Below are positions 13,221 to 64,000 of a DNA stretch of 64,000 bases, in pieces (position 1 is the first letter of the stretch; every line of letters starts with the position of its first letter). A program made the position numbers and the translations under genes. Below the pieces are notes generated by a model. That model saw only the letters and a program-made list of their open reading frames with translations, was not told the origin of the DNA and ran no database searches. The DNA is from Escherichia phage FH3. The stretch lies in the sequence record OR886155.1, one strand, 5' to 3'.

Positions 13221-13225
13221 TATTT

Positions 13226-13248: not shown

Positions 13249-13276
13249 GTTGTTGATAATGTAGAAGGAGTATAAA

Positions 13277-15654: not shown

Positions 15655-15680
15655 AAGCTATCAACCGAGGGAGAGAATAG

Positions 15681-17924: not shown

Positions 17925-17933
17925 GGACGTCGA

Positions 17934-19246: not shown

Positions 19247-19287
19247 TCGACAAATTAAATTATTAATAGTATAGGAGCTAACATAAC

Positions 19288-42875: not shown

Positions 42876-43718
42876 TTACCAAGATTTATCTAACCATGTC
42901 CAGTCGAACAGGTCTTCCGGAGCCTGACCAACAAAGAGCAGCCGAGCATTCTCAAGCATCTTCTCTTCATCTTCAGTATCGAACTTCTTATAGTATTCCA
43001 TTCGTACTATATGATACATGGTCCACTTATCTGTAACACCAGCCAACAATTTAGCTGCTGCCTTCTTCCCTATTCCTTGACGTCGAAGCTGAAGCTTACC
43101 GCCCCACATAACTTCTTTACGTTCCCCACATCCGGGGATATTATCCGTACCATCTCCAATCAACATTTGATAGAAGAAGTTTTGCCATGAGACTAAATCG
43201 GATACATAGTGAGGAGGAACTTCTTTCTGTCTTTCTCCACAAGCCCAGCGATAATGCCATCCGGGAGTTATCAACAAATCCTTGTCTCTAGTACAGATGA
43301 TAGTATTCTTATCCCTACGTTGTCTTTCAGCTAGTGCATCATCAGCTTCTCTCCCAAAGACCTCAATGTATTCGTACTTGGCTTTAATGTAATCACCAAC
43401 GTTTTGCCAGTGAAAAGGTCTTTCTCCGGGAGGTCTGTTTGCCTTGTAGTCTTGCTGCTTAGCAACATCAAAACGGAAGTTACCGCCTTCGCTGAAGTAG
43501 AACACAACCTTACTGCAACCTGAGCGAGCAATGATTGTATCTATCTTGTACTGAAGTCGTTCAATCATGAAATTGTAATCAACTGGAACACGTCCTGTGT
43601 CAAGAAAGGGATGCTCCTGAGTAAGAGCACCCACTTCATATCGAAGAACGTCAGCATCCACTATAGCAACTTCAGGGAGCTTAACTTCTTCCATAAATAT
43701 CATCCTGAGCTTGAGCAA
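42876..43718 (-). CDS. 5'-3' exonuclease / flap endonuclease (FEN family)
   Basis: PIN-like N-terminus with acidic residues and H3TH-type GDGTDNIPG motif; true start may be an internal Met near 43694-43703. Confidence 0.75.
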   Translation of the reverse strand: MLKLRMIFMEEVKLPEVAIVDADVLRYEVGALTQEHPFLDTGRVPVDYNFMIERLQYKIDTIIARSGCSKVVFYFSEGGNFRFDVAKQQDYKANRPPGERPFHWQNVGDYIKAKYEYIEVFGREADDALAERQRRDKNTIICTRDKDLLITPGWHYRWACGERQKEVPPHYVSDLVSWQNFFYQMLIGDGTDNIPGCGERKEVMWGGKLQLRRQGIGKKAAAKLLAGVTDKWTMYHIVRMEYYKKFDTEDEEKMLENARLLFVGQAPEDLFDWTWLDKSW

Positions 43719-46620: not shown

Positions 46621-47034
46621 TTATATGAATTTCTGCATACCTTTGATACGAGGGTTATCATCACCAACTCTCGATTTACAGTAAGCGATAAAAGATTCAG
46701 TATTGAGGTTATCTTTTTGGGAACCCCACTGAAGGTTGTCTGCTCTATTGTTGCTCGGATTATCATCCAGATGCATAACAACAGCGTTAGGAAAAGGTTT
46801 ATCACCGTGAAAAGTCTCACACACTAAGATATGAATCCTTTTCTTAAACTTTCTTTTCTTGTTTACAAACACCATTCTTCCATCTTTCTCTCTATATCCG
46901 CTATATGGTTTTCCTACGAAAAGCCTAACTCCACCATTATTCATTATGGCTGTGAAAGGCTTAATCTTAACTCTACCAAAAGATGATACGGAAAGGAAAT
47001 CATAATAGGGATGATCTTTCCAGACTTCTTCCAC
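46621..47034 (-). CDS. HNH homing endonuclease
   Basis: HLDDNPSNNRADNLQWGSQKDN motif. Confidence 0.8.
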   Translation of the reverse strand: MEEVWKDHPYYDFLSVSSFGRVKIKPFTAIMNNGGVRLFVGKPYSGYREKDGRMVFVNKKRKFKKRIHILVCETFHGDKPFPNAVVMHLDDNPSNNRADNLQWGSQKDNLNTESFIAYCKSRVGDDNPRIKGMQKFI

Positions 47035-50690: not shown

Positions 50691-50843
50691 TTAGTGCGTA
50701 TGCATCCAGTTAAGTCCAATCTGACAATCAGATGCCAGAGGACATTCCATGTTCAAGTACTCACCAGCTTTCTTAACGCAAAGCTCAGTGTGCTCTTTGA
50801 GTTTCTGTACATCGTTACGATTAACTGAGAACTGGCCCTCATC
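50691..50843 (-). CDS. DNA polymerase (family A), exon 2
   Basis: Encodes DEGQFSV...MECPLASDCQIGLNWMHTH*, matching the Pol A C-terminus after motif C; a stop lies immediately upstream in frame, so it cannot be an independent gene. Confidence 0.7.
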   Translation of the reverse strand, partial: DEGQFSVNRNDVQKLKEHTELCVKKAGEYLNMECPLASDCQIGLNWMHTH

Positions 50844-51441
50844 CATTTATGTTATTCCCAAATTACTTCGGGTATCGGACTATATCATAACAGCATAGCT
50901 AATTTGCTGTTGTTGGCGCTTCGAGGGTTTCCCTGTTAACCCCCTACTCCCGCAGGATAGTCTCTACACTTTCCACTTTCGAATCCATCTACAAGCGATT
51001 CCAAAGCTCACACCAAACCTTTCTGCAAGAGCAACACCAGTGCATTCATTGTTAAGCCAGAACTCTTTAGCAGCATTCTGTCTTTCTCTGTTTCTGCCAG
51101 TGTTTGACTCGATAGCATGTGCACTACCTTCTAAGATTTCTAGATGGTCAGTATTGCAACAAGCTCTATTCTTGCATTTATGGTTAACTTCATAACCGTC
51201 AGGGATGTTTCCAAATTTCTCTTCCATGACGTATCTGTGATACATGACCCATTTGCCATTTATCATTTTTCGAAAGTAACCATCTTTATTTAGTTTGTGT
51301 GAGATAGGGATGATACATCCTGTGCTAGTTGTTTCTAGCACTAGATCTTTCTTAGCCATATCACCTCCTAATAGCTTAGCTCGGTATTGCCCTCAACTTA
51401 ATGGTCGGGTTTCACCGAGTTCACCAACTTTTACATGCACA
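50844..51441 (-). mobile_element. group I intron in the DNA polymerase gene, carrying an HNH ORF
   Basis: 5' exon ends ...AUGCAU; intron nt 11-16 GUGCAU can form P1 with a U-G pair at the splice site; GACUA (50958-50963) and GAUAUAGUCC (50877-50886) match R/S (P7) elements; last intron nt is G; ligation restores ...IDMH-DEGQ... Confidence 0.7.
50964..51359 (-). CDS. intron-encoded HNH homing endonuclease
   Basis: YEVNHKCKNRACCNTDHLE motif; own RBS AGGAGGTGAT; entirely inside the predicted intron. Confidence 0.7.
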   Translation of the reverse strand: MAKKDLVLETTSTGCIIPISHKLNKDGYFRKMINGKWVMYHRYVMEEKFGNIPDGYEVNHKCKNRACCNTDHLEILEGSAHAIESNTGRNRERQNAAKEFWLNNECTGVALAERFGVSFGIACRWIRKWKV

Positions 51442-53142
51442 ATGAAGTTTATGCATATCAATTACCTTAGCACAACGAACCTTATCTTTCTCAATCCACT
51501 TGTTAAGGAACATCATAGCATATTTCATAACAACAGCACCAGCACATTGCAGGAGTGTGTTAAGGGCTTTATGAACCATAACTTTACCAGTGGCATCTCG
51601 TCTCATTGTAATCTTACGACCATCAACACCAATCAAGTATCCTTGAGCAGCTTTCTCTGTCATACGATCAATGAGGATTGCAATACATGGGTTCTCTGCC
51701 AAGAAACGTGCTCGCATCACTGAACCTTCGTCAGCCCCACCACCTACAATTGAACCAAGCTTAGCATCGCCAGCACCGTAGTTGAATGCATAGATAAACG
51801 TTTTAGCGTTGTCACGAGTAGGAAGACCAGCAAGTTTCTGGTTGTGGGAGTGGATATCACCTTCAAGGAGAATATCACGATACATAATAGCAGAAGCTAA
51901 ACCACGTTCTGCCAGAGCTTTCTTAGCTGGGTTGTTCTCTTCAATTGCCTCAGCAAGCATATCCCTACACTCTTTAATGAGGTAGTGAGCGAGCATACGA
52001 AGTTCAAGCCCAGAACCATCATACCCTAAGAATACTTCTTTACCAGCGGGTATGTAATATTTGTAAGCACCTACAGGTTTGTCTTTCTTCCCCGGTTTAC
52101 CTTTCTCATAAATTACGTTAGTACCTTTTCGTATATAACAACCATCAGGAACAACGTTAGTAATAACGAAAGGACGAGAATGATCACTGTCTGAGTTATA
52201 GTCAGACTCAAACAAACTGCGACACTCGTGACCAAACAAACCACGGGAGGGAATATTAACCACGATACGATGTTTGAATCGAAAAGTCGGCGTAGCGCAG
52301 CTGTTAGCTTCTGCCGAAAGTTTACCATCTTCGCGTTCCTTTGCTATGAGTCCACTGATAAGACCTAGCCTGTGAGCCGCTACAACGCGTCTCTTAAGCA
52401 AACTTCCGACACTCCCTAGCTCACCCCCTAACCCTTCTTCAAGAGTCTCCTCGAGGTTTGTAGGAGCTGTAGGCCACTTGTTTGAAGTGGCTAGTGCTTT
52501 CTTAATCTCATCAAACGTTACAGGATTACGTCGATTCGGGTTTAATCCCAAACCAAACACGTAAGCCTTCATATAGTTCTTAGTTTTAAACCTAAAATGC
52601 TTTTCTAAGAACTTCTTAATATCAGCGTCAACCATCTCGGCTGTCTGCTTCTGCTTAGCATTGCCTCGCATCCAAGCAGTATACCATGCTTGGTATGTTC
52701 CATACTTTCGCATGTCTTTCTTAATTTCGAAAGTATTCCAAGGTTTCTTAGATACGTTAAACTCTGGAGGAAGAAAGCCCTCATCCATAAGAGCTTCTTT
52801 AACTCGTGCATCTTTCGATGGGTCAAAGTCTACGTATTCGACACAGGTGAAAGCTCCACCAATATCTTCTCTCTTCAGCCCAACCCTATCACAATAGGCT
52901 TGAGGCCACTTCTGTAAAGCTCCAGACTTCTTAAACGGCTTCATGTAAGTAGAGCCATCTAATCTCATCTTAGGTAAGAGAGGAATCAACTCTCTGTCAA
53001 TATTAACAATAATCTCTTTAAGGAGGTGAATATACCACCGAGCATTTCTTCGGTTGAAACTCACTCCGTGCTTTGCTTGCTTAGAGATTATATCAGCGAC
53101 AGTCATCTCTGTCAAAAATGGAAGAGCGTCCGGGTTGCTCAC
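51442..53142 (-). CDS. DNA polymerase (family A), exon 1
   Basis: Motif A GYDGSGLELRMLAHY and motif B RDNAKTFIYAFNYGAGDAKLG present; motif C absent from this ORF; the last 9 codons of the listed ORF are intron sequence. Confidence 0.85.
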
Positions 53143-53158
53143 TTTATACTCCTTTAAA

Positions 53159-53581
53159 TTATTGGTAAAGTAAATCTGTAAATGCTTGGTTATCTTCTAC
53201 TACATTCAACATGGTAGCTTCATCACTATAAGCCCTAACCGTCCCGTTGACAACTGTCCAAGGAGGAGGTGGAGGTGGTGCATGGTTAGCCCTAGCTTCA
53301 CGAGGTTGCTCTCGTACTAAATGAGCCACAACCCTTTGGTTAGCGACTTCTTCTCTTTCTCGGATAGCTCTTTGGATGTAAGCCAGCTTCATACCCCAAG
53401 CTTCTTCAAACTCTTGAGGGTGTTTATCACTGATAACCACATATTGACGTTCAGGAATACCAGATCGAATCTCCGATAATAATTCATGGAACAGATCTAG
53501 TTCGTGCTCAGTGAGATTCATTTCGATATCATCCCACTTAAGAACTAAGAAACGGTTTTGGTGTCTAGCTGGTAATGGCAT
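53159..53581 (-). CDS. hypothetical protein with poly-Pro stretch
   Basis: ORF track, 140 aa. Confidence 0.35.
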   Translation of the reverse strand: MPLPARHQNRFLVLKWDDIEMNLTEHELDLFHELLSEIRSGIPERQYVVISDKHPQEFEEAWGMKLAYIQRAIREREEVANQRVVAHLVREQPREARANHAPPPPPPWTVVNGTVRAYSDEATMLNVVEDNQAFTDLLYQ

Positions 53582-53584
53582 AAC

Positions 53585-53869
53585 TCAACCTTTTGGGAAT
53601 GGCATTAAAGATTCCATAGCAGATTTAATTTCGTTATTGATTCGTGAGTCACGATAAGAGATAAACTTACCTTTGCTATCACGTAACATCACATGGGTTC
53701 TGGCTGTTTTGTGAGGGAGCAATGTGATACTAGTTGGAATAGCATCAATCCCTACAGCGTATTTGTCAATAGTCTTACTTTCAGCCAACAGATAAGACCA
53801 AGTACGCGGTTTCTGCTCCGGGCGGTTAGGGTATGTGTCTCGAATCTGTACCATAGCTAACTTATTCAT
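53585..53869 (-). CDS. small protein, paralog pair member 1
   Basis: ...KTARTHVMLRDSKGKFISYRDS...LMPFPKG. Confidence 0.4.
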   Translation of the reverse strand: MNKLAMVQIRDTYPNRPEQKPRTWSYLLAESKTIDKYAVGIDAIPTSITLLPHKTARTHVMLRDSKGKFISYRDSRINNEIKSAMESLMPFPKG

Positions 53870-53870
53870 G

Positions 53871-54128
53871 TTAAACTCCTTTAGGGAATGGGATGAGGTT
53901 TTCTACTGCAACACGATATTCTTTCTCTACATCTTTATTCTTATAAGAAATGAATTTCCCATCAGCCCCACGGAGGATTACATTAGTACGAGCTGTTTTT
54001 GGATTATGACCAATCTGGTTTGCAATTAGGCTGATGTTGTGTTTGACATCATGGTTATTAGTGAATTTCCACTTAGCCAGACGGTTAGTCCAAACATCAA
54101 TGATAGTTACGGTTTTTACAATAGACAT
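53871..54128 (-). CDS. small protein, paralog pair member 2
   Basis: ...KTARTNVILRGADGKFISYKNK...LIPFPKGV. Confidence 0.4.
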   Translation of the reverse strand: MSIVKTVTIIDVWTNRLAKWKFTNNHDVKHNISLIANQIGHNPKTARTNVILRGADGKFISYKNKDVEKEYRVAVENLIPFPKGV

Positions 54129-54197
54129 AATTATTACCTAAGAAGTTTAATTTGGTTTATATAAAAGAAAAGGCCACCTGATTAGGCAGCCTTTGTT

Positions 54198-54491
54198 CTA
54201 GAGACGAAGCCAAGTTTGATAGTCAGCTTCAGTGTAATGGTTGTTTCGAGAGTTGTTTTTCATTCCCTTGAGAGTAGCTCTCAGGTCAATGTTATGCTCT
54301 CTCCTTGTTCTATTCGGGTCTGTATCTTCTAATAGATGGGAGTGATCACTACAAGAGTAGTGCTTATAGTGGTCCCTGTATCCTCTACTTGGAGAATACT
54401 TGGTCATTAAAGTTGCAACTCTTTTTACACCCTCTGCTTTACAGAATTTACAATAAGTGTGAATGGTACATCTTTTTGTTTCTGCTGACAC
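54198..54491 (-). CDS. hypothetical Cys/His-rich protein
   Basis: ORF track. Confidence 0.3.
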   Translation of the reverse strand: MSAETKRCTIHTYCKFCKAEGVKRVATLMTKYSPSRGYRDHYKHYSCSDHSHLLEDTDPNRTRREHNIDLRATLKGMKNNSRNNHYTEADYQTWLRL

Positions 54492-54509
54492 TATAACCTC
54501 TTTATGAGC

Positions 54510-54788
54510 TTAAAGCTCCTTTGCGTGCTCCAGCTGCTTTTCCAGCTCGATCACCACTTTTGCCGCCGTTTGAACGGTTTGAGCTGACTGATTCAACACG
54601 TAAGTTGCTTGACGCATTAGAGCCTCCAGACTTGACAGCTCGTTTGTGTCCAACGTCTTTACCTCTGACAGCAGCTTTTCCATCGCGCTTTTCAACGATG
54701 CGACGTGCACGGTGGCGCTGAGCATCTCCGCTCTTGCTCCCAATTCCCGTTTCACCGCGCTTGATCGCAGTCCTTCTTTCTTGTGCAT
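54510..54788 (-). CDS. hypothetical coiled-coil protein (one of two overlapping frames)
   Basis: ORF track; the alternative frame 54502-54816 encodes a basic low-complexity product. Confidence 0.25.
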   Translation of the reverse strand: MHKKEGLRSSAVKRELGARAEMLSATVHVASLKSAMEKLLSEVKTLDTNELSSLEALMRQATYVLNQSAQTVQTAAKVVIELEKQLEHAKEL

Positions 54789-54815
54789 AATCTCTTTTTC
54801 CTACATGATCTGCCA

Positions 54816-55145
54816 TTAGATTTCTCCTGATTCTCTTTGATTAAAGGTGTGGATGGCGTGGCAATTAGCACACAATATCCTGCACTTCCTCATCTCTTCT
54901 TTTACTTGAGATAAAGATCTGGTGTGCCCTTTGGAGAGTTCGAATGACTTAGTTAATGGATTTAAATGATCAAACTGAAGAGCAGATGCGTGGCCCTTAA
55001 AGCCACACTCAGAGCATCCATAGAATGTTTTAACTCTACGAATAAAAGCTAGTTGCCTAACTCTTCTTCTCTCGTTATCTGCCTTTCTCTTATCTCTATT
55101 TCCTGGGTCGGCCCATCTACACGAGTCATTGCAAAACCTCTGCAT
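54816..55145 (-). CDS. HNH endonuclease
   Basis: CSECG...FDHLNP...CANCH. Confidence 0.7.
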   Translation of the reverse strand: MQRFCNDSCRWADPGNRDKRKADNERRRVRQLAFIRRVKTFYGCSECGFKGHASALQFDHLNPLTKSFELSKGHTRSLSQVKEEMRKCRILCANCHAIHTFNQRESGEI

Positions 55146-55439
55146 TATATACTTCGTTACAAATGGTACCTTACAGGTTTCACATTCCTTGTGGTAGGTT
55201 GCTATTTGGACCTCCTACTCAGTGTAAATAAAACCCTCTTCTATCATTGACTTTTGAGTACTAATCACTCCACCCTCCCGGTGGTTCAAAATTTTCTTGA
55301 ACATCCAGAACCTCTACATCATCACTCAGGTAGGTACTCTTGCCAAAACCTAAAAGCCAGCGAGCTTTATCAATATCTTTATAAAAATTAAGAGCTGCAC
55401 TACCATCATAACACTCACGAACTATAATACCGATTTTCA

Positions 55440-56180
55440 TTAACTGTTTACCTTTTCCATTGCTTTAACAATCGCCTTACAGAAACCAGAACGAACAATA
55501 TCATCTGACTCACCGTCTACAATCTCAGCGAACTCATACAGATCATGTTCATCAATAAAATTAGTAGCCCAAGTTAGGCCACTCTCACGACCACGCATAT
55601 CATGCTGGTTAGTATCACCCATGCAGAACAGCTGAGAGGTTTCTCCCAATCGAGTCATGATTGAGAAGGCTTCATCTTTAGTGGTGTTCTGGAACTCATC
55701 AACAATAACAATAGCATCATTGAAAGAACGACCACGGAGATATTCCAGAGGTACAAATTCAATGTTACCATTTCCGATTTGGCATTCATAGAATCCCTTA
55801 CCGTATCGCTGAGTAATAACATCAATGATAGGCATCAGGTAGGGTTCAAACTTCTCGCGCATTCCTCCCGGAAGTAACCCAAGAGAGTTACCCATGCCGA
55901 CCGAAGGGCGACTCAGAATGATCTTCTGAATCTTACCGCTTTTCAGTGCATCAATAACCGTGGAAGTGATTACAAAGGTCTTACCACAGCCCGCAGGAGC
56001 ATCTGTGAACACAACTTGTTTAGTCTTGATAGCATTGAGTAGCTCAGACTGAAACTGGTTCTGAGGGACTACAGGCTTTGCTAAAACCACCTCTTCATAC
56101 TCTCGCTTACCTTTACGAGTAACAAGTGCTTCTCGACGAAGGTCTTTCCGTGATTCTTTCCGTGATTGACGACGACTCAT
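55440..56180 (-). CDS. phoH: PhoH-like ATPase
   Basis: Walker A DAPAGCGKTF and overall PhoH-like layout. Confidence 0.8.
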   Translation of the reverse strand: MSRRQSRKESRKDLRREALVTRKGKREYEEVVLAKPVVPQNQFQSELLNAIKTKQVVFTDAPAGCGKTFVITSTVIDALKSGKIQKIILSRPSVGMGNSLGLLPGGMREKFEPYLMPIIDVITQRYGKGFYECQIGNGNIEFVPLEYLRGRSFNDAIVIVDEFQNTTKDEAFSIMTRLGETSQLFCMGDTNQHDMRGRESGLTWATNFIDEHDLYEFAEIVDGESDDIVRSGFCKAIVKAMEKVNS

Positions 56181-56362
56181 TTACGCTCTCCAATTTCTTC
56201 GTAATGACACTCAGTAGTTAAGCAGTCTTTACAGATTGCTGTATAAACCCTGACGTTAGTAAATCGTTTGTTCTTCCCTTTGGTTGGAGAGCCTTTGGCA
56301 AGCTCTCTGATAACCTTGTTACTTAAATGAAGGTTTGTTCCTTCACATTTAGAGCACTTCAT
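56177..56362 (-). CDS. small Zn-ribbon protein
   Basis: CSKCEG...CKDCLTTECH. Confidence 0.3.
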   Translation of the reverse strand: MKCSKCEGTNLHLSNKVIRELAKGSPTKGKNKRFTNVRVYTAICKDCLTTECHYEEIGERK

Positions 56363-57605
56363 TGTTTACCTCAGAAATTATAAGGGTCATAATCAAGAGA
56401 ATCAAACCCATAATCTGAGCTATTAAGGTATCGGCGCTTTAATCCGAAATCTTCGTAGTGAGGTTTTCCAGGAACAGTTTTGCCTTTGGTTATGTTCGTT
56501 ACTTGACTAGAAGAGAAAAGGTGAACCCCTTCAGAAGTCCTAGCAGAAGATTTTTCTCCTTTCTTAACCACTTTTCCTTTTTTGGCCCATCCTTCGAATG
56601 TTCTATATTGCATCAAAACTCCTTACCACAATGTCCATTCAGTAAGGGACCACAGAGAGTCCCCTATGTGGGTGTTGTCATGTCGGATGAGATCTTTGAT
56701 TTTATCAACATCAGTCAAGTGAGTTACATTCAAGATATCCTCAACATCTGGAACATGTTTGAATATGGCAACAATGTTATTACCATCATCAGAAAACTCC
56801 TCAAGCACATAAACTACACTCATGCGACATTAGCCTCTTTATGAAGTCTGTAAATAGCTGTCGCCATGCAAGCAACAGCCTCGTTGTGTGGGAGGTGCAT
56901 CCCTGTAGAACCATCCCAATCTTTGAACTCACTGTCAAAGACTCCGGTAGGCTCTGGATACAGAGCTTGCAGCTCCACTAGATCGTTAGCAACTTGTTGC
57001 CATTTATCGTCAGACCAGATAGGGTCATCCAACCAGTAATACAAATAGGAATGGATGATCAATTGCCTTCTGTGCCGATTAATTACTTCAGCGGGACTTA
57101 TCTCACTTCCATTTGAAGTCCTAAATGTATTACTGTCAATCATTACGAAAATTCCCGTTCTGTTAAAGAGTGCTGAACTTCATTATCCGGAGACCAAACC
57201 TTTTCTCCATTTACCAATTTCTTAGCATCTTCATCTGAAGCACAATCTAAAGCAGGATTATCAGGTGTTGGCTTCTTTGGAAATCTTTTCCAAGTCCAAA
57301 AATATCCGTCATCGTCTTGGCAACCAAGAGTCCACAAAGTTTTCATTTCACAACCTTAAATTTAAATGTTGTTGGGTGAGAATAATTCCACACAGTCAAG
57401 CATGTAGTAGGAGTAACCAAAGGGTTTGGCTGTTAAGTTGGAAACCATTTTATCAAAAAGGGATTGAGAAACATCCTCTTCTACTCCAACATCCTCAAGC
57501 TGCTGCTTTGTAGGATAGTCAGTGAAAGAGCAAAGAATTTCTGTATCCTCTCCTCTGTCTGCATCCTCAACACGACTCAGAATCCAAATATTCTTCCTAA
57601 CCATT

Positions 57606-58262
57606 TTAATTCTCCAAAGTTTTCTTCAGAGCTGCCCACGAGATTGGGTAGAGCTTAGCCATCTCTTCATCTACGGATTTAGCAAACACTCGAACTTCAT
57701 ATTGAGCGTGAGAGGATAGTCGCTGACGGCACAACTCAAACCAGCCATACAAAGAACCAGTCCACACCCACTCAGTGATCATCCCCTGAGGAAGAACAAA
57801 TCGAGCTTGCTCTGGTGCAATAAATTCAATCAACTTATCATATGCTGCTAAAGAAGCTTCATATGCATCGTTAATCAACATTAATGCTTCAGCTCGCTCT
57901 CCGTCGATGAGTTGAATCCCTGAACCTGCATGGAGGTCCGAAGGTCTCGCAAAAATCTCTTTAGGGATGAAGACTTCAACTGCTCCATCTTTATACCGCC
58001 GGGACATTTCGTTCCACGAGAATCCAACCTGATGCTTTCCCAGCTGTCTCGCAATTGCGATAGGTGCTTTGCATCGGAAACTGACTTGCGGGTGTCGGAA
58101 TGGAGTACAGTGTTTTTCCCGTGCAAGGAAGTTGATAAGTTTTGTGTCTCTCTCATTTAAGTCACCTTCTCGAACAACACCGAAAGATACTCTAGCTGCA
58201 TTGACTACAGATTTGTCACTTCCCATTGCTTCAATCAGTGTTGCTTGTAGTTGTTCGTTCAA
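57606..58262 (-). CDS. thyX: ThyX-like flavin-dependent thymidylate synthase homolog with atypical signature motif
   Basis: HCTPFRH...KAPIAIARQL...SWNEMSRRY fits ThyX; the position where I expect the RHR motif reads K-H-Q. Confidence 0.7.
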   Translation of the reverse strand: MNEQLQATLIEAMGSDKSVVNAARVSFGVVREGDLNERDTKLINFLAREKHCTPFRHPQVSFRCKAPIAIARQLGKHQVGFSWNEMSRRYKDGAVEVFIPKEIFARPSDLHAGSGIQLIDGERAEALMLINDAYEASLAAYDKLIEFIAPEQARFVLPQGMITEWVWTGSLYGWFELCRQRLSSHAQYEVRVFAKSVDEEMAKLYPISWAALKKTLEN

Positions 58263-58701
58263 TTAAAAGTTCCTTTTTTCGATTCATGTAAACTTGATGA
58301 GCTTCTTCGGCAGTTCCATACATACCTAGATGTATATCTACTTTATCAATACAAATAACAGCCCTATATCTGATAGTGCCTGATCTGTATTTGACAACCT
58401 TAACACCTTGAAGCCCTGTTTCCTTGTTTGATACTCTAGCCCCGAACTGGTTGTGGCAGTTTGTCGAGGTGTCCACCAATCTCAAGTTCTGTATTGAGTT
58501 GTTCTTCTTATTTCTATCGATATGGTCTATCTGAGAAGAAGGCCATTCTCCATAGTAAAAGAACCATGCCACTTTATGAGCTTTGTGTACTTTCCCTTTA
58601 AACCGCAGGGTTATGTACTTACTTCGAGTTCCTCCTAATTTCTTACCTTTTCGAAAGAACTCTCCAGTTTCAGGGATATACTCTAAATCATCGATTACCA
58701 T
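58231..58701 (-). CDS. HNH homing endonuclease with AP2-like DNA-binding domain
   Basis: SQIDHIDRNKKNNSIQNLRLV motif; C-terminal ...HLGMYGTAEEAHQVY. Confidence 0.7.
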   Translation of the reverse strand: MVIDDLEYIPETGEFFRKGKKLGGTRSKYITLRFKGKVHKAHKVAWFFYYGEWPSSQIDHIDRNKKNNSIQNLRLVDTSTNCHNQFGARVSNKETGLQGVKVVKYRSGTIRYRAVICIDKVDIHLGMYGTAEEAHQVYMNRKKELLIERTTTSNTD

Positions 58702-58966
58702 TCAGAGCTGTATCCAAAAAAGCTTTCAGGTTTGCTTCAGTCTGCATACCAGAAATGCTGTAGTGTGCACCACTATTACGGTCAGGCACAATGAAAGCAG
58801 GGATGCTTCGTACACCATACTTAACAGCTTGTTCACGACCATCACCTTCAAGGATGTTAATCTCTTCCACTTCTACATCAAACTCCTTAACAACCTTCTC
58901 AAAGGTAGGAGCCATTGCTTTACATGGAGCACATTGATCACTATAAAACTTAATTACTTTAGACAT
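58688..58966 (-). CDS. thioredoxin
   Basis: 92 aa, FYSDQCAPCK active-site CxxC, thioredoxin-length. Confidence 0.75.
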   Translation of the reverse strand: MSKVIKFYSDQCAPCKAMAPTFEKVVKEFDVEVEEINILEGDGREQAVKYGVRSIPAFIVPDRNSGAHYSISGMQTEANLKAFLDTALNGNR

Positions 58967-58974
58967 GTAAATCC

Positions 58975-59154
58975 TTATGCAGTCAGGAGGTGAAGCAGGA
59001 ATGGGATAACAACAGCTATGATAACCATGATGGTTGATGCTGTTTGAATCTCACCTTTCTTATCAGGGGTTTCTTCAATAAGCTTCCCAGAAGCCCAATA
59101 AATACCACCACCAATAAAGATAGCCCAAATACCCCATACGATTGCTGATAACAT
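58975..59154 (-). CDS. small two-TM membrane protein (59 aa, below ORF-track cutoff)
   Basis: My translation MLSAIVWGIWAIFIGGGIYWASGKLIEETPDKKGEIQTASTIMVIIAVVIPFLLHLLTA. Confidence 0.3.
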   Translation of the reverse strand: MLSAIVWGIWAIFIGGGIYWASGKLIEETPDKKGEIQTASTIMVIIAVVIPFLLHLLTA

Positions 59155-59214
59155 ATATCTATATCCTTATAAATAAGTTCGCCCCACCTCGGGTTAGGAG
59201 ACAGGGCGGAGGTT

Positions 59215-59793
59215 TTAGTAAGACACATCACCACTTGAATGGGACATGTTGCTCTTGACGAAGTAGCAATACTTGCCAAGACCTTCATTAATTTCTTGAA
59301 GCATACTCTGATCGACAGGGTAGGTGGCTAAATCACCATCAAACTCATCCATCTTCTCAATAATACACATCAAGGTCATGCACATATCAGAGAGCATACC
59401 GTCCATGTCTAGATCAGCATTACCCTCTGAGAACCAAGCATGAGAGAGGTAGTTAGCTGCTGTAGCATCCACTTTAACACAGTGGTAACGCATACGTTCA
59501 GCAATACGATCTCCTACCTGTCGTGCGTAATCTTCCAGCTCATCAAACATACCATGAACACCTTGAAATCCTGCACCAGAGACGTTCCAGTGGTAGTTTT
59601 TAGCTTTGATATGCAAGAGTTCCATGTTAGCTTGTAAGCAGCTCAGGATGTGTTCTAGGCTGTTTCCACTAATCATACCCTGCATTGTTTCAAGGCGAGA
59701 GATTGATAGGTCGGACCGGTCTAACATGCTATAACTGTCACGACCGATCTCAGGTAAATCAAAAACATTCTTATGCATTTGGGTTTTCTCCAT
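59215..59793 (-). CDS. Dps/ferritin-like protein
   Basis: LQANMELLHIKAKNYHWNVSGAGFQGVHGMFDELEDYARQVGDRIAERM resembles the Dps four-helix ferroxidase region. Confidence 0.5.
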   Translation of the reverse strand: MEKTQMHKNVFDLPEIGRDSYSMLDRSDLSISRLETMQGMISGNSLEHILSCLQANMELLHIKAKNYHWNVSGAGFQGVHGMFDELEDYARQVGDRIAERMRYHCVKVDATAANYLSHAWFSEGNADLDMDGMLSDMCMTLMCIIEKMDEFDGDLATYPVDQSMLQEINEGLGKYCYFVKSNMSHSSGDVSY

Positions 59794-60100
59794 CCAGTTC
59801 AACTGAGTTAGCAACATTACGTGCGATATTATCCATTACCTGCTGAGTAATTACGATGCAGTTCTGTGGGTCTACTGACTTAGAACGCCCCATTTCAGGG
59901 TCATACACCTTAACTCGCTTAGCAGTTGAACCTGTAACCTGAAGAACCTTCAACAGATATCCCTGATTACCAATAGACCAAGCAACAACATCACGATTCT
60001 TGATAAAGCGACCAAGCATATCACGATGATAAAACTGTTGCATCACCTTGGATTTTGTAATCTCTTCAGTGGGCGGGGCCACTTTACTCAAATCTAACAT
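59771..60100 (-). CDS. hypothetical protein
   Basis: ORF track. Confidence 0.3.
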   Translation of the reverse strand: MLDLSKVAPPTEEITKSKVMQQFYHRDMLGRFIKNRDVVAWSIGNQGYLLKVLQVTGSTAKRVKVYDPEMGRSKSVDPQNCIVITQQVMDNIARNVANSVELDGENPNA

Positions 60101-60172
60101 AACTCTCTCCTGTAAAATACAAATTCTTGTTGTACTCTATATACATTTGAGAGTTACCATATCTACTACCAA

Positions 60173-60382
60173 TCAGTAATAAATTACTTTAGACATAAAA
60201 GAACCCGAGTTAGGGTCTTCGTACCAGCGATGAATGTCAGCACTTTTAACTGTTCCAATTAAAGTTTTCATCTTCTTCTTAGCAATACGAGCATCTTTAC
60301 GGGTGTCAAATAATTTGATATTATCTTTACCTAGATGGTGTCCATCTTCCCAAACAACACGAACAGCCCATATCTTTTTCAT
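60173..60382 (-). CDS. small basic protein, paralog pair member 1
   Basis: MKKIWAVRVVW...; adjacent to a similar ORF. Confidence 0.35.
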   Translation of the reverse strand: MKKIWAVRVVWEDGHHLGKDNIKLFDTRKDARIAKKKMKTLIGTVKSADIHRWYEDPNSGSFMSKVIYY

Positions 60383-60576
60383 TAGTAATGTACCTTTCCG
60401 CTGATATAAACACGACCAGAGGAATACTCTCTGGCCTTATGAATGCTAATACTCTTAGTTAAGTCCATATTGAACATAGACTTTTTAAACTCTCGAGCTT
60501 GTTGGCGGGTAGGTAGTGCAGTCATAGTCATACCACCTGATGCCCACTTAATCTTCGCTAACCAGAATTGTCTCAT
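60382..60576 (-). CDS. small basic protein, paralog pair member 2
   Basis: MRQFWLAKIKW... Confidence 0.35.
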   Translation of the reverse strand: MRQFWLAKIKWASGGMTMTALPTRQQAREFKKSMFNMDLTKSISIHKAREYSSGRVYISGKVHY

Positions 60577-60629
60577 TTATCTTTCATCCACATTAAAGGA
60601 GAGATGAAGTCTACTTCTCATAGACTTCG

Positions 60630-61100
60630 CTAGGAGTTTTGCCTCTTCAAGAGTTTTACTCCATACACAGACTCACGTTTACCATCTTTTTGAACAGATA
60701 CACAGAACGTCCCGCCCTTCTCTTGGTAGACATTCTTAACTCCTAGCTTGTTATCAACCCTTGTCTTAGCATTCTGACTGTTCTCAGAGTGAGAGCACTT
60801 TCTCAGGTTAGTTTCTTCTAGGTTTTCTCTGTTACCATCGGCATGATCTATTTGATATTCATCCGATAAATCCTCACCAGTATAAAGAACAAAAAGAATC
60901 CTATGATTATGGACACGAACTCCTCCTAAGGGAATTTGATAATACCCATCTTTTGTGAGCTTGCCATCAGGTTTACCTACTATATCATTAGCAAACTTAC
61001 TAGGCTTCCTTTTCCAAGAAAGCCCTGAAGGGGATGACATGTCTATATTAAAGAGATCAACTACTTCATCATAGCATATCAGCATGATTTGTTCCACCAA
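60630..61100 (-). CDS. HNH homing endonuclease
   Basis: YQIDHADGNRENLEETNLRKCSHSEN motif. Confidence 0.7.
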   Translation of the reverse strand: MVEQIMLICYDEVVDLFNIDMSSPSGLSWKRKPSKFANDIVGKPDGKLTKDGYYQIPLGGVRVHNHRILFVLYTGEDLSDEYQIDHADGNRENLEETNLRKCSHSENSQNAKTRVDNKLGVKNVYQEKGGTFCVSVQKDGKRESVYGVKLLKRQNS

Positions 61101-61623
61101 AAGCTTTTGTTGGCCCTTGTTGGTTATTGTATGAACCTTTAGTTGCGTAGCTATCCTCTTCCGAGGATGAGTGTTTAAAGAATTCCATCTGACCGATACG
61201 CATTCCCGGCTTGATCAGCAGAGAGTGGTGCTGTAGGACGTTCTTGAATTCCATAGTTAACTGACTGCCATGCCAACCACCGTCAGCATGACCAGCGTGC
61301 ATGTGCTCTAAGAAGCAACGACCGACAGTAGATCGTAGCATGAAGTCACAGCTAATGTTGTCTGGAAGGTTGAATGTCTCCACTGTATGAGCTAAGAAAC
61401 ACTCACCCGGTTTGATCACCAACCCTTCCTCTGGAATCATAACCTCATTGAAATTAGGGGATTCTTTAGCAGAGATATCAACAACCCCATTAGCTGCACC
61501 TTCCATCAGAACACGATCTCCAATACGAACATCAATGCTGGAGGAATTAACAGCTGAGTGTGGTGCATCAATAACACCATCATCAATTAATTTATGTAAC
61601 TCTGGGCTTCCTAGTAAACTCAT
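61069..61623 (-). CDS. dCTP deaminase/dUTPase-superfamily enzyme (Dcd-like)
   Basis: IDVRIG, RSTVGR, GWHG...LEF.N, KPGMRIGQ and YNNQQG segments match the Dcd layout. Confidence 0.75.
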   Translation of the reverse strand: MSLLGSPELHKLIDDGVIDAPHSAVNSSSIDVRIGDRVLMEGAANGVVDISAKESPNFNEVMIPEEGLVIKPGECFLAHTVETFNLPDNISCDFMLRSTVGRCFLEHMHAGHADGGWHGSQLTMEFKNVLQHHSLLIKPGMRIGQMEFFKHSSSEEDSYATKGSYNNQQGPTKAFGGTNHADML

Positions 61624-61632
61624 TCTTATTCC

Positions 61633-62946
61633 TTAGTTATTTGTTTCCATGTCAAAAGAGATTCCACGACCCGCTTCATCGGCAAACCGAACTGTACGGG
61701 TTTGAGGTTCTAATACTTCAGGGTTGTTGGCAATAAAGCGATCAGCGAGATTATCTACCACATCTTGGGCCACACCTTCATCAGTCCACACAGCCCTAAC
61801 AGGTGCGTTGATATCACCAACAGCAAAACCCTGACCAGAGAACTGGTGACGGCTAACAGTCAAGCCGTTTGATCGACCACGAGAAGGACTAGACATCCAT
61901 TGCTCCATAGAATCACTTGTAATACCAAGAGCTTCTTCAAAAGATGTTCTACGAGAAGAGCTTAGATTTCGTGCTTCATTTGCTCGACGTCTTGTAGGGG
62001 CTACAAACACCCCTTCAATTGCATTGTGTCGGTTAGGTTCGTCTTCTCTACCAAGCAGATCACCACCTGTATTAGTTGTTAAATTTGTCAACCCTTCAGA
62101 CCAATACGCATGAATCTGACCGGAACCGTGAAGACTAGACATAATCTGAATCTCTTCATAAGGGATTCCAAAAAATCGACTCATGTCTCGGTTAACACAA
62201 TATAGAGCACTTGTTGTATCCTCAATAAGAGCAACCTGACCTATTTCATTAACAAGATGACTGACTGGCTGAGGTGTAGGAAGGTATCGAGTTTGGGCCA
62301 TATATTGATATGCAACAGATGGGGCTGAGAATCTTAACACTTGTGAATTAGGCCACTTTTTGTGAACGTATCTGATTTCACGACTAGAAACAACCACAGG
62401 GCAAGGGGCGGTCATAGCTAAATACCCATGAGGGGTCATGAATAAGTTGTCAAGAGTCATCGCACCACGGCACATCATAGGAAAGTTATCCAATACCTCT
62501 TCGATAGAAGTAGGATAATTAAACATGAATTGGATACGAACCCCATTCCACTGAAACTCAATAATATCAGTGAATGTTAATTGAGAACCCCCAGCATAGG
62601 ATTCGTTTGTAGCTTCAGCAAGAAGAGATGAATACTCAATATCTTGAGACTCAAGCCACTCTTTAACGTTACTTTCAACTTCTCGTCCGAGATCTTGCCA
62701 CTGCTCATGACGGATGAAAGTATTTCGAGTTCTTGGGGCCTGTCCTCTGACAATAAAGATATCAATGTCATGCGGAGCTGTGTTATTAAGCACAGCATCA
62801 CGAATAGCCCCACCAGTGATGATAGGACAAATACAGTCTGGAATCAAGTTGTTGTTAATCAGCTGTTCAATGAAGTGACGACCAACAGTGATATCCGGTT
62901 GTTGAGCAACCTTATCTTCAATTCGGTTAATCGGGATAACAATCAT
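61633..62946 (-). CDS. nucleotidyltransferase with CCA-adding-enzyme/poly(A)-polymerase-type head motif
   Basis: ITGGAIRDAVLNNTAPHDIDIFIV corresponds to the G-G-A-V-R-D ... D-x-D head signature; the remaining ~380 aa not recognised. Confidence 0.5.
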   Translation of the reverse strand: MIVIPINRIEDKVAQQPDITVGRHFIEQLINNNLIPDCICPIITGGAIRDAVLNNTAPHDIDIFIVRGQAPRTRNTFIRHEQWQDLGREVESNVKEWLESQDIEYSSLLAEATNESYAGGSQLTFTDIIEFQWNGVRIQFMFNYPTSIEEVLDNFPMMCRGAMTLDNLFMTPHGYLAMTAPCPVVVSSREIRYVHKKWPNSQVLRFSAPSVAYQYMAQTRYLPTPQPVSHLVNEIGQVALIEDTTSALYCVNRDMSRFFGIPYEEIQIMSSLHGSGQIHAYWSEGLTNLTTNTGGDLLGREDEPNRHNAIEGVFVAPTRRRANEARNLSSSRRTSFEEALGITSDSMEQWMSSPSRGRSNGLTVSRHQFSGQGFAVGDINAPVRAVWTDEGVAQDVVDNLADRFIANNPEVLEPQTRTVRFADEAGRGISFDMETNN

Positions 62947-62947
62947 T

Positions 62948-63505
62948 TTACATTTTCCAATATAATGAAGGTGGGTCGTAAGGGTCAAATCCTGTGATTT
63001 CACACAAGAAAAGATAAACCTTAACAGTTAAGTTAACGTCCTGTTCACAATAAGTAAACATATCTTCAGTGAAAGCATCCCATGCTTCCTCTTGCTCACC
63101 ATAATCGCCCTTAAGTTCTCCTAAGAACTCACCCCACTGCTTCAAACCATGACCCCTTGGGCCACGTCTAGGGTCGCCTTTCGGATACTCAGGACTGTCA
63201 CCAATACGGTCAGGTTTAAGATATCGACTAAGACATAAAGTGTCAAAGACGTTAAAATTATATTTAATCAAAGAGGGATACATCTTCTTCAGAGCAGGTA
63301 AGTCGAAGTCAATAATATTATGACCCACGAGCACATCTGCTTCTGTCAGTTTACGAATCCCGTCTTCGATTTGGTGAGGCCGATAGCCCCACCTTTCACC
63401 AGTTTCAACATCGAAGATATAAATACACCATACTTTAGTTATGTCATCGTACAGTGCATTACTCTCGATATCGAATGCAAACACTTTCTTCTTTTTCTTT
63501 ACCAC
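62948..63505 (-). CDS. stand-alone 3'-5' proofreading exonuclease (DnaQ/Pol A exo-like)
   Basis: Exo I FAFDIESN, Exo [15 protein letters not shown], Exo [11 protein letters not shown]. Confidence 0.7.
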
Positions 63506-64000
63506 GGTGAAGCTCCATCTGCTTGGTTGACGAGAGAAGCTGCATCCTCTCCATTAGTTAAAACGAATGGATTATCTTCATCAACTTCAAAGTCTTCCCT
63601 CTCTACAAGTCTACCGGTTTCACTGATATACTTAGTATAACAGACACCTGTCTGACCGTAGTTGCGTTCTTTCAGTAATCGAATGACTGAGAGGTTCTTA
63701 GCTAAGCCGTCAGCTTGCTTGTCACGCTCAAAACCAATGATACACTGACACCAACGCATAAGAGAACGAGAGCCAGTGAACTGCACTTCACGTACCTGTC
63801 CACCTTCTTCATGAGGAGCACCACCTGCCGGAGCATTAAGGTGAGATAACACGAAAGCGGTAAAGTCTAGTTCTTTACACATACCAGCAAGCTCGGAAGC
63901 AATCTTACTGATTTCAGTGTTAATCTCTGAAGGGGTTAAATGAGACACCAGAGCGGTAATGTTATCAAGGATGATGAACTTACACTGGTTTTCAACTACC
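63499..64000 (-). CDS. DnaB-like replicative helicase, C-terminal part (gene continues past window edge)
   Basis: Frame open to position 64000; ...[11 protein letters not shown]... and ...[12 protein letters not shown]... match helicase motifs; listed start is an internal GTG. Confidence 0.7.

What the first reader, a model, noticed from the sequence alone, without database searches (positions are those of the whole stretch)
62948..63505. Proofreading exonuclease encoded separately from the polymerase
A 185-aa ORF has all three Exo motifs of a DnaQ/Pol A 3'-5' exonuclease but lies about 10 kb from the Pol A gene, next to the helicase. The polymerase gene seems to lack a clear exo domain, so proofreading may be supplied in trans; this is an unusual split.
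Basis: partly seen in the sequence, partly recalled or inferred. Interest (0 to 1): 0.4.

Follow-up and report, generated by a model that had tools for sequence, protein, structure and literature searches.

The report
Separately encoded proofreading subunit, phiEco32-type phage

Summary
ORF 62948..63505 (-) encodes a 185-aa homologue of the T7 gp5 3'-5' exonuclease domain. All catalytic residues are present: D12/E14, N63/D68, H119, Y152/D156. The predicted fold (pLDDT 94.6) matches T7 DNA polymerase best.

Its start overlaps the stop of the primase/helicase gene. The family-A polymerase gene starts 9,805 nt downstream and lacks an exonuclease domain. Exo and pol joined end to end align colinearly with intact T7-type polymerases, with the break at the inter-domain linker.

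The split is not new. The window is a Kuravirus, 99.4% identical to Escherichia phage 1-6af. RefSeq and PHROGs already call the orthologues "DNA polymerase exonuclease subunit". Papers describe the separation for phiEco32, the LUZ24 group, all Kuravirus-like phages, 7-11, Privateer and Vp_R1. An adjacent-gene version is described in S-SBP1 cyanophages.

The most likely mechanism, which is inferred and not shown, is a non-covalent exo-pol complex that reconstitutes a T7-gp5-like proofreading polymerase.

One addition: in this phage the pol gene is itself interrupted. A 607-nt group I intron carrying an HNH endonuclease gene sits between the His and Asp codons of motif C. This is the same site and intron family as in T7-like phages. 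Kuravirus-group records annotate it as separate genes.

The parts
62948..63505 (-). Gene for the stand-alone 3'-5' exonuclease (proofreading) subunit, 185 aa. GTG start; stop TAA at 62950..62948.
   Evidence: It has the DEDDy motifs, an AlphaFold2 pLDDT of 94.6, best fold matches to the T7 gp5 exo domain, and a PHROG assignment of 'DNA polymerase exonuclease subunit'.
63513..63516 (-). GGAG Shine-Dalgarno sequence, 7 nt upstream of the exo GTG. It lies inside the 3' end of the primase/helicase ORF, an arrangement that suggests translational coupling.
   Evidence: Sequence read.
63499..64000 (-). 3' end of the T7-gp4-like primase/helicase gene. The gene runs off the end of the window.
   Evidence: The SU10 and ES17 orthologues are annotated as DNA primase/helicase. 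The SU10 protein hits Pfam DnaB_C.
53143..62947 (-). The 9.8-kb interval between exo and pol, holding about 25 same-strand ORFs. Identified products: nucleotidyltransferase, dCTP deaminase, ferritin-like protein, thioredoxin, ThyX, ligase Ia-domain protein, PhoH, and three free-standing HNH endonucleases.
   Evidence: Gene content is as in SU10 and ES17.
51451..53142 (-). Family-A DNA polymerase, exon 1 (codons 1-564). It encodes the polymerase domain only. Motif A is D375; motif B is R443/K447/Y451. It ends with His564 of motif C.
50844..51450 (-). Group I intron (IA-like), 607 nt. A U precedes the 5' splice site and the intron ends in G.
   Evidence: The intron is absent from the SU10 and ES17 pol genes. 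Helices P1, P10, P3, P4, P5, P7, P7.1, P8 and P9 are present, five of them with compensatory changes. It sits at the same site as the annotated intron of phage 13a.
50964..51359 (-). HNH homing-endonuclease ORF (131 aa) inside the intron.
   Evidence: Pfam HNH_3, E 7e-12. Homologous ORFs are annotated as HNH or homing endonuclease in 13a, SU7 and Vp_R1.
50691..50843 (-). DNA polymerase exon 2 (codons 565-614). It carries the catalytic D565-E566 of motif C and the T7-like C-terminus ...NWMHTH.
58688..58966 (-). Phage-encoded thioredoxin (92 aa). It is a possible processivity partner of the polymerase, by analogy with T7 gp5 and host thioredoxin.
   Evidence: Pfam Thioredoxin, E 1.5e-13. The hypothesis is stated for phage Privateer in PMC7881722.
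42876..43718 (-). Separately encoded putative 5'-3' exonuclease (flap endonuclease type), 280 aa.
   Evidence: Pfam 5_3_exonuc_N at 29.8 bits, below the cut-off of 34.3. PMC9965538 reports a separately encoded 5'-3' exonuclease in Kuravirus-like phages.

Best explanation
The ORF encodes the proofreading (3'-5' exonuclease) subunit of a T7-type family-A DNA polymerase that underwent an ancient gene fission at the exo/pol linker.

Proposed expression and assembly: the exo gene stayed directly downstream of the primase/helicase gene, and its start overlaps that gene's stop, which suggests translational coupling. The polymerase-domain gene was pushed 9.8 kb away by accumulated nucleotide-metabolism genes and homing endonucleases. 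The 185-aa protein is proposed to dock non-covalently on the 614-aa polymerase and rebuild a gp5-like two-domain enzyme.

Proposed chemistry: mismatched primer 3' ends are transferred to the exo site and hydrolysed by two-metal-ion catalysis. D12, E14, D68 and D156 would bind the metals, and Y152 (with H119) would position the nucleophile.

What is shown here: homology, fold, intact and invariant catalytic residues, colinearity with fused enzymes, and conserved synteny.

What is inferred: physical association with the polymerase, exonuclease activity, and a role in fidelity.

In this particular phage an active polymerase additionally requires splicing of a group I intron, because the catalytic Asp565 of motif C lies on exon 2.
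For: 1. Sequence and fold. Pfam DNA_pol_A_exo1 scores above its cut-off. T7 gp5 is the only PDB sequence hit, at E 2e-12. The AlphaFold2 model has pLDDT 94.6, and its top 27 Foldseek hits are all T7 DNA polymerase.

2. Catalytic residues. They align with T7 D5/E7/D65/H123/Y170/D174. Across 41 stand-alone homologues, down to 33% identity, D12, E14, H62, N63, D68 and D156 are invariant. Y152 and H119 are conserved in at least 90%.

3. Colinearity. Exo and pol joined end to end align along the whole length of T7 gp5 and of the Vibrio phage JSF31 polymerase. The break lies at about T7 residue 195-205. In PHROG profile 17, exo occupies positions 667-826 and pol positions 836-1185.

4. The pol protein has motifs A, B and C but no exo domain.

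5. The order helicase, exo, cargo, pol is conserved:
- Kuravirus SU10 and ES17
- Salmonella phage 7-11, gap 6.7 kb
- a LUZ24-like Pseudomonas phage, gap 1.9 kb
In metagenomic relatives the exo gene follows a Toprim-DnaB primase/helicase gene, directly in P0025 and after one small ORF in P0065. The pol gene was not seen within the sequence held for those contigs.

6. All 65 database homologues found are short (101-247 aa), so they are stand-alone proteins.

7. Literature. PMC9965538 describes separately encoded 3'-5' and 5'-3' exonuclease subunits, 'common to all group members'. PMC3517423 reports the LUZ24 group and phiEco32. PMC10201439 reports that AlphaFold2 predicts a complex of the split S-SBP1 exo and pol that superposes on an intact polymerase.
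Against: - There is no biochemical or genetic evidence for this protein or any orthologue in the papers I could read. Complex formation is inferred by analogy only.
- The two genes are far apart, and I did not establish whether they share a transcript, so co-expression and stoichiometry are unknown.
- I could not model the complex, because the structure tool takes one chain.
- The split-clade polymerases carry large insertions relative to T7, so the docking surface may differ.
Confidence: 0.85

Rival explanations
1. The protein is an independent DEDD exonuclease that does not work with the polymerase. Possible roles include host-DNA degradation, recombination or end processing, or an RNase T/Orn-like RNA or nanoRNA nuclease.
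For: It is a free-standing protein whose gene is 9.8 kb from pol. It gives a weak secondary Pfam hit to the generic RNase_H_2 family. Distant fold matches include ExoI, TREX and diDNase at about E 1e-5.
Against: - Its closest relatives by sequence and fold are polymerase-fused exo domains, by 5-6 orders of magnitude in E-value.
- Exo III is Yx3D, not the Hx4D of RNase T, Orn and epsilon.
- The protein ends exactly where the pol protein begins in the fused-enzyme alignment.
- It occurs together with a pol-only gene in every lineage examined.
Confidence: 0.08
2. The protein is a structural remnant. It stabilises the polymerase fold, as exo domains do in some family-A enzymes, but no longer proofreads.
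For: PMC10201439 notes that family-A polymerases need the exo domain for stability even when it is inactive.
Against: All four acidic metal ligands are invariant across 41 diverged homologues, and Y152 and H119 are conserved in at least 90%. That pattern indicates selection on catalysis.
Confidence: 0.04
3. The split is not real. It would be an assembly or annotation artefact, or the two parts would be joined at the RNA or protein level by trans-splicing, a split intein or ribosome hopping.
For: The same pol gene does contain a genuine intron, so RNA processing does occur at this locus.
Against: - The arrangement recurs, with about 25 functional-looking genes in between, in about 90 independently sequenced genomes and in three phage lineages.
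- The exo ORF has its own Shine-Dalgarno sequence, start and stop. The pol ORF has its own AAGGAG sequence and GTG start.
- Pfam found no intein-related family in the exo or pol products, and no intron-like element was seen at the exo 3' end or the pol 5' end.
Confidence: 0.02

Closest known systems
The 'DNA polymerase exonuclease subunit' of phiEco32-like phages (Kuravirus SU10 gp075, ES17 gp074, YF01 gp70) and of Salmonella phage 7-11 (gp082); PHROG 403 and 38876
   Same: These are orthologues. The Kuravirus proteins are 80-99% identical and the 7-11 protein is 49% identical. They have the same length, the same position after the primase/helicase gene, and the same distant pol-only gene.
   Different: There is essentially no difference. 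The gap is 6.7 kb in 7-11 and 9.8 kb here. This phage and a few relatives additionally carry an intron in pol.
Split polymerase of the LUZ24/PaP3/tf group (Bruynoghevirus)
   Same: Exo (169 aa) and pol (545 aa) are separate genes. The exo gene overlaps the helicase stop. The pol protein is 39% identical over 99% of its length. The split was noted in print in 2012 (PMC3517423). LUZ24 also has an intron in its pol gene.
   Different: The gap is only about 1.9 kb (7 small genes). The exo protein is only about 33% identical.
T7 gp5 DNA polymerase (fused exo and pol; PDB 1T7P, 6N7W, 6P7E)
   Same: The exo fold and catalytic residues, pol motifs A, B and C, and the C-terminal ...NW..H are all shared. 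The domain order is colinear, and the genes follow a gp4-like primase/helicase gene.
   Different: T7 gp5 is a single polypeptide. In the window's pol the segment aligned with the T7 region containing the thioredoxin-binding loop is about 21 residues shorter. The pol also has several long insertions. The phage encodes its own thioredoxin.
S-SBP1-like cyanophage split family-A polymerase (Czernecki et al., NAR 2023, PMC10201439)
   Same: A T7-like polymerase is split into exo and pol genes at the domain boundary. AlphaFold2 predicts that the two products reassemble.
   Different: That is a recent fission caused by a frameshift, and the genes remain adjacent and overlapping. It is probably an independent event. 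Here the fission is ancient and the genes are 9.8 kb apart.
E. coli DNA polymerase III, epsilon (DnaQ) and alpha subunits
   Same: Functional analogy: proofreading is supplied by a separate DEDD-family subunit bound to the polymerase subunit.
   Different: Epsilon is of the DEDDh type and its partner is a family-C polymerase. There is no specific homology beyond the DEDD superfamily.
Group I intron with HNH endonuclease I-TslI in gene 5 of T7-like phages PhiI, W31 and 13a (Bonocora & Shub 2004, cited in PMC3428280)
   Same: This comparison concerns the intron found in passing. The insertion site is the same, after the His codon of motif C. The sequences are about 66% identical at the nucleotide level. 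The helices and the HNH ORF position are the same.
   Different: The host gene belongs to another phage group (Gordonclarkvirinae). The P1 and P10 guide sequences are adapted to the different exon sequence. Kuravirus-group records do not annotate it as an intron.

Membership tests
DEDDy 3'-5' exonuclease domain of family-A DNA polymerases (Pfam PF01612, T7 gp5 type) | Exo I motif DxE | tested here: met
   D12-I-E14 aligns with T7 D5-I-E7. Both residues are invariant in 41 homologues.
DEDDy 3'-5' exonuclease domain of family-A DNA polymerases (Pfam PF01612, T7 gp5 type) | Exo II motif Nx2-3(F/Y)D | tested here: met
   H62-N63-I-I-D-F-D68 aligns with T7 H59-N60..Y64-D65. H62, N63 and D68 are invariant.
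DEDDy 3'-5' exonuclease domain of family-A DNA polymerases (Pfam PF01612, T7 gp5 type) | Exo III motif Yx3D (the 'y' subtype) | tested here: met
   Y152-C-E-Q-D156 aligns with T7 Y170..D174. D156 is invariant and Y152 is conserved in at least 90%.
DEDDy 3'-5' exonuclease domain of family-A DNA polymerases (Pfam PF01612, T7 gp5 type) | Profile score above the curated threshold, and an RNase-H-like fold that superposes on a polymerase exo domain | tested here: met
   Pfam scores 35.4 bits against a cut-off of 23.6. The AlphaFold2 model has pLDDT 94.6. Foldseek against the PDB gives T7 DNA polymerase for ranks 1-27, with E down to 2.4e-11 and query TM-score 0.60-0.73.
DEDDy 3'-5' exonuclease domain of family-A DNA polymerases (Pfam PF01612, T7 gp5 type) | Mg2+-dependent 3'-5' exonuclease activity on DNA | not testable with these tools
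   This needs an enzyme assay.
Stand-alone exonuclease subunit of split T7-like family-A polymerases (phiEco32/LUZ24 type; PHROG 403) | A free-standing ORF of about 165-190 aa that consists of the exo domain only | tested here: met
   The ORF is 185 aa with its own Shine-Dalgarno sequence, start and stop. It matches PHROG 403 at E 1.4e-38 and PHROG 38876 at E 1e-76. All 65 database homologues are 101-247 aa.
Stand-alone exonuclease subunit of split T7-like family-A polymerases (phiEco32/LUZ24 type; PHROG 403) | A partner pol-only gene in the same genome, with the two products colinear with a fused polymerase | tested here: met
   The pol ORF lacks an exo domain. The concatenated proteins align end to end with T7 gp5 and the JSF31 polymerase. 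The two proteins occupy consecutive positions in PHROG profile 17.
Stand-alone exonuclease subunit of split T7-like family-A polymerases (phiEco32/LUZ24 type; PHROG 403) | Gene located downstream of the primase/helicase gene | tested here: met
   The genes overlap by 7 nt here. The same arrangement is seen in SU10, ES17, a LUZ24-like phage and metagenomic contigs. In 7-11 one endonuclease VII gene is inserted between them.
Stand-alone exonuclease subunit of split T7-like family-A polymerases (phiEco32/LUZ24 type; PHROG 403) | A physical complex with the polymerase subunit | not testable with these tools
   The structure tool predicts single chains only. The only support is by analogy, from the AlphaFold2 complex of the S-SBP1 exo and pol in PMC10201439.
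RNase T / oligoribonuclease / DnaQ-epsilon (DEDDh, Pfam RNase_T) | Exo III motif Hx4D, and a match to the RNase_T profile | tested here: not met
   Exo III is Yx3D. No RNase_T hit appeared among Pfam families with E <= 0.01. Stand-alone DEDD nucleases (TREX, ExoI, diDNase) rank below all T7 polymerase chains, at about E 1e-5.
Group I self-splicing intron with an HNH homing endonuclease (T7-like gene 5 / I-TslI type); this tests the feature found in passing | U.G pair at the 5' splice site in P1, a terminal G, P10, and core helices P3-P9 | tested here: met
   The exon ends in U, which pairs with G of the guide GUGCAU. The intron ends in G. P1, P10, P3, P4, P5, P7, P7.1, P8 and P9 were found in the canonical order. 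Compensatory changes occur in P1, P10, P3, P8 and P9 across the window, 13a and Vp_R1.
Group I self-splicing intron with an HNH homing endonuclease (T7-like gene 5 / I-TslI type); this tests the feature found in passing | Rfam RF00028 score at or above the gathering threshold | tested here: not met
   The score is 26.2 bits against a threshold of 50, with E 3e-4 in a 1.4-kb search. There was no hit at the gathering threshold. The ORF splits the core, so the model aligns only the 3' part.
Group I self-splicing intron with an HNH homing endonuclease (T7-like gene 5 / I-TslI type); this tests the feature found in passing | Splicing that restores the reading frame, and self-splicing in vitro | tested here: inconclusive
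   In-silico removal of 50844..51450 restores a 614-aa ORF. Its translation matches the intron-less SU10 polymerase across the splice junction and through to the shared C-terminus. Actual splicing was not tested.

The most novel reading that the evidence does not exclude
The fission may not be neutral. The exo gene is always kept downstream of, and usually overlapping, the primase/helicase gene, while the pol gene drifts 2 to more than 10 kb away. The exo subunit could therefore be made in step with the helicase and recruited to the replisome through it, rather than being permanently docked on the polymerase. That would give these phages a proofreading activity whose level is set independently of polymerase level, and so a tunable fidelity.
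Probability: 0.07. Interest if true: 0.5.

Novelty: already known. Interest (0 to 1): 0.15.

Why it matters
For the finding as given, it matters little. It correctly recognises a real and somewhat unusual arrangement: a family-A replicase whose proofreading domain is a separate subunit. That arrangement has been noted for phiEco32 since 2008, as cited in PMC3517423. It is stated explicitly for Kuravirus-like phages in 2023, and it is encoded in RefSeq and PHROG annotation.

The remaining open question is biochemical. Nobody appears to have shown that the two proteins associate, or that fidelity depends on the small subunit. These phages would be a convenient natural system for studying a non-covalent exo-pol family-A enzyme.

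The by-product is a modest annotation correction. It is also an example of one intron family occupying the same polymerase codon in three phage groups, with its guide sequences adapted to each exon. In this phage and a handful of relatives the polymerase is thus encoded in three pieces: the exo gene, exon 1 and exon 2.

Tried and rejected
- Rfam at gathering thresholds over the whole window found only a borderline tRNA-like hit and no intron. The intron appeared only in an E-value search of 1.4 kb, at 26 bits. I therefore verified it by comparison with intron-less relatives and by explicit helix checks.
- A MAFFT alignment of ORF-deleted introns (A2) misaligned the P7.2-P3'-P8 region between lineages. 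I did not use the count of structure pairs on it, and checked each helix per sequence by script instead.
- ARAGORN found no tRNA, so the Rfam tRNA hit at 841-919 stays unexplained.
- Savalia et al. 2008 (phiEco32) and Bonocora & Shub 2004 are not held in the library. Both are cited only through papers that cite them.
- I did not attempt an exo-pol complex model. The structure tool takes one chain and only window or database sequences. A single-sequence fusion of about 800 aa would not have been informative.
- Hidden exo motifs in the pol N-terminus: rejected.
- An RNase T/Orn-type nuclease: rejected.
- An assembly or annotation artefact, or an intein: rejected.
- Two other phage groups with T7-like exo hits were inspected. 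A Stephanstirmvirinae phage has a fused 860-aa protein. A phiCbK-like Caulobacter phage has a polymerase region fragmented into several annotated ORFs. I did not pursue these further.

Full report
**What the window is.** Region 50900-64000 is 99.4% identical to Escherichia phage 1-6af. It is 92-98% identical to other Kuravirus genomes (Gordonclarkvirinae, the phiEco32 group), including ES17, SU10 and EcoN5. All genes in the region lie on the minus strand.

**Check of the observation.** ORF 62948..63505 (-) exists and encodes 185 aa.
- It starts with GTG at 63505, preceded by GGAG at a 7-nt spacing. The start overlaps the TAA stop of the upstream primase/helicase ORF (63499-63501). The ORF ends with TAA one base before the ATG of the next gene.
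- It scores above the Pfam cut-off for DNA_pol_A_exo1 (35.4 bits against 23.6).
- Against all PDB sequences it hits only T7 DNA polymerase, residues 3-178, at E 2e-12.
- The catalytic residues map as follows: D12/E14 = T7 D5/E7; N63..D68 = T7 N60..D65; H119 = T7 H123; Y152..D156 = T7 Y170..D174.
- An AlphaFold2 model built on 41 homologues has mean pLDDT 94.6. Its 27 best PDB matches are all T7 DNA polymerase chains, at E 2e-11 to 8e-9. Stand-alone DEDD nucleases (ExoI, TREX1/2, diDNase) appear only at about 1e-5.

**The polymerase lacks an exo domain.** The polymerase gene begins at 53142, which is 9,805 nt downstream. Its product hits only Pfam DNA_pol_A. It aligns with T7 gp5 only from about residue 200 onward. 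It contains motif A (D375), motif B (R443, K447, Y451) and motif C (H564-D565-E566).

When exo and pol are joined end to end, they align along the full length of T7 gp5 and of the fused polymerase of Vibrio phage JSF31. The break falls in the exo/pol linker, at about T7 residue 195-205. Independently, in PHROG profile 17 ('DNA polymerase'), the exo protein occupies positions 667-826 and the pol protein positions 836-1185.

**How general the split is.**
- SU10 and ES17 have the same layout. RefSeq calls SU10 gp075 'DNA polymerase exonuclease subunit'.
- Salmonella phage 7-11 (Grimontviridae) has helicase, endonuclease VII, exo, a 6.7-kb gap, then pol.
- A LUZ24-like Pseudomonas phage (Bruynoghevirus) has a helicase gene overlapping exo (169 aa), then 1.9 kb of small genes, then pol (545 aa).
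- Only these lineages match the pol protein over its full length, at 46% and 39% identity. Fused T7-like polymerases match only its C-terminal 56% or so. The three lineages also share insertions that T7 lacks. This argues for one ancient fission, followed by growth of the intervening cargo.
- In the 5.8-billion-protein collection, all 65 homologues found are 101-247 aa. The four acidic ligands are invariant among 41 of them, down to 33% identity.
- In metagenomic contigs the gene again follows a Toprim-DnaB primase/helicase gene, directly in P0025 and after one small ORF in P0065. I did not see the pol gene within the downstream sequence held: 10 kb for the contig of P0025, and 2.8 kb for that of P0065.

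**Literature.**
[quoted passage not shown] - PMC3517423 (2012) says that polymerase and proofreading exonuclease are separate genes in all LUZ24-group phages. It says a similar organisation was reported for phiEco32, citing Savalia et al. 2008.
- PMC10201439 (NAR 2023) describes an adjacent-gene exo/pol fission in S-SBP1-like cyanophages. AlphaFold2 predicts that those two products reassemble like an intact polymerase.

The finding is therefore already known.

**Mechanism.** The best-supported reading (confidence 0.85) is a non-covalent exo-pol holoenzyme equivalent to T7 gp5, with two-metal-ion hydrolysis of mismatched primer ends in the small subunit.
- Shown: homology, fold, conserved catalytic residues, colinearity and synteny.
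- Inferred: binding, activity and effect on fidelity.

The rivals are disfavoured by the evidence above. They are an independent nuclease, an inactive structural remnant, and an artefact or a fusion made after transcription.

**Found in passing: the pol gene is interrupted.** In SU10 and ES17 the polymerase is 614 aa, with the sequence ...VIDMHDEGQFSV.... In the window the ORF stops after ...VIDMH + KLHCACKSW. A 51-codon ORF at 50691..50846 carries DEGQFSV...NWMHTH. The intervening 607 nt (51450..50844) contain an HNH endonuclease ORF.

Evidence that this element is a group I intron:
- The exon ends in U and the element ends in G.
- A local Rfam search gives Intron_gpI at 26 bits, E 3e-4, which is below the gathering score.
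- The element is about 66% identical to the intron of T7-like phages such as 13a, whose gene 5 is annotated as a two-piece join.
- It sits at exactly the same position, after the His codon of motif C.
- I identified P1, P10, P3, P4, J4/5, P5, P7, P7.1, P8 and P9 in canonical order.
- Compensatory changes occur among the window, 13a and Vibrio phage Vp_R1 in P1, P10, P3, P8 and P9. These include guide-sequence changes that track each host's exon sequence.

Removing the element restores the 614-aa ORF. The catalytic Asp565 lies on exon 2, so splicing is required for an active polymerase.

Among the hits listed (40 of 58 matching records), the element occurs in only some Kuravirus-like phages: 1-6af, 1-6bf, PE006, pEC-N1203-2Af.1, PAS59, ECBP2 and SU7. 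It also occurs in Vp_R1. In those records it is annotated as separate 'DNA polymerase / HNH endonuclease / DNA polymerase' or hypothetical CDSs, not as an intron. The Kuravirus papers I could read do not mention an intron. It is a new member of a known intron family (Bonocora & Shub 2004, cited in PMC3428280).

**Verdict.** Interest is low, at 0.15.

Noticed in passing
window 50844-51450 (-), with HNH ORF 50964-51359; pol exon 2 at 50691-50843: A 607-nt group I intron carrying an HNH homing endonuclease splits the polymerase gene between the His564 and Asp565 codons of motif C. It is the same site and intron family as in T7-like phages (13a, PhiI/W31). The P1 and P10 guide sequences are adapted to the Kuravirus exons. 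Related Kuravirus-group records annotate the pieces as separate genes rather than as an intron.
   Followed up: yes
window 53087-53115 (-): A perfect sigma-70 consensus promoter, TTGACA-17-TATAAT with an extended -10 TG, lies inside codons 10-19 of the polymerase ORF. It is identical in SU10 and ES17 and is the only 12/12 match in the 64-kb window. A transcript starting there would lack the pol start codon. Its function is unknown.
   Followed up: partly
window 58688-58966 (-), and pol residues about 55-110: A phage-encoded thioredoxin lies between exo and pol. It is conserved in 7-11 and in metagenomic relatives. The pol keeps a shortened version (about 21 residues fewer) of the T7 gp5 segment that contains the thioredoxin-binding loop. 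A role as processivity factor has been proposed for phage Privateer (PMC7881722) but is untested.
   Followed up: partly
window 60630-61100, 58231-58701, 54816-55145 and 46621-47034 (all -): Four further free-standing HNH endonuclease genes are present. The first three lie in the exo-pol interval. At least two of them, those next to the dCTP deaminase and ThyX genes, are absent from SU10 but present in ES17. They look like mobile homing-endonuclease genes that help inflate the interval.
   Followed up: partly
window 61633-63003 (-): The nucleotidyltransferase ORF has a weak PolyA_pol/CCA-adding head-domain hit and matches PHROG 12715. Its mechanical 456-aa ORF overlaps the exo gene by 56 nt. 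The likely true start is the ATG at 62946 (437 aa, as in ES17), one base after the exo stop codon. Its function in the phage is unknown.
   Followed up: partly
window 56820-57143 (-): A 107-aa protein consists only of the NAD+-dependent DNA ligase N-terminal Ia domain (Pfam Nlig-Ia, E 4e-35). SU10 annotates its orthologue as 'DNA ligase'. It is a stand-alone adenylation-cofactor domain with no ligase body nearby.
   Followed up: no
window 42876-43718 (-): A separately encoded putative 5'-3' exonuclease or flap endonuclease. The Pfam 5_3_exonuc_N hit is below threshold (29.8 bits against 34.3). It is consistent with the separate 5'-3' exonuclease reported for Kuravirus-like phages.
   Followed up: partly
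window 841-919 (-): A borderline Rfam tRNA hit (29.7 bits against a gathering score of 29) with a 20-nt insertion in the variable region. ARAGORN finds no tRNA anywhere in the window.
   Followed up: partly
pol residues about 136-250, 339-368 and 392-420 (window 51451-53142, -): The polymerase has long insertions relative to T7 gp5 and the JSF31 polymerase. They are shared with 7-11 and partly with the LUZ24-like polymerase, so they mark the split-polymerase clade. Their role is unknown.
   Followed up: no
loci L018/L019 (metagenomic contigs of 94-105 kb), positions 8239-20528: These uncultured relatives have an exo protein 55% identical to the window's. They keep the helicase-exo overlap, and at least 10 kb of cargo follows the exo gene, including RtcB and anaerobic ribonucleotide reductase NrdD/NrdG. 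The pol gene was not seen within the sequence held.
   Followed up: no
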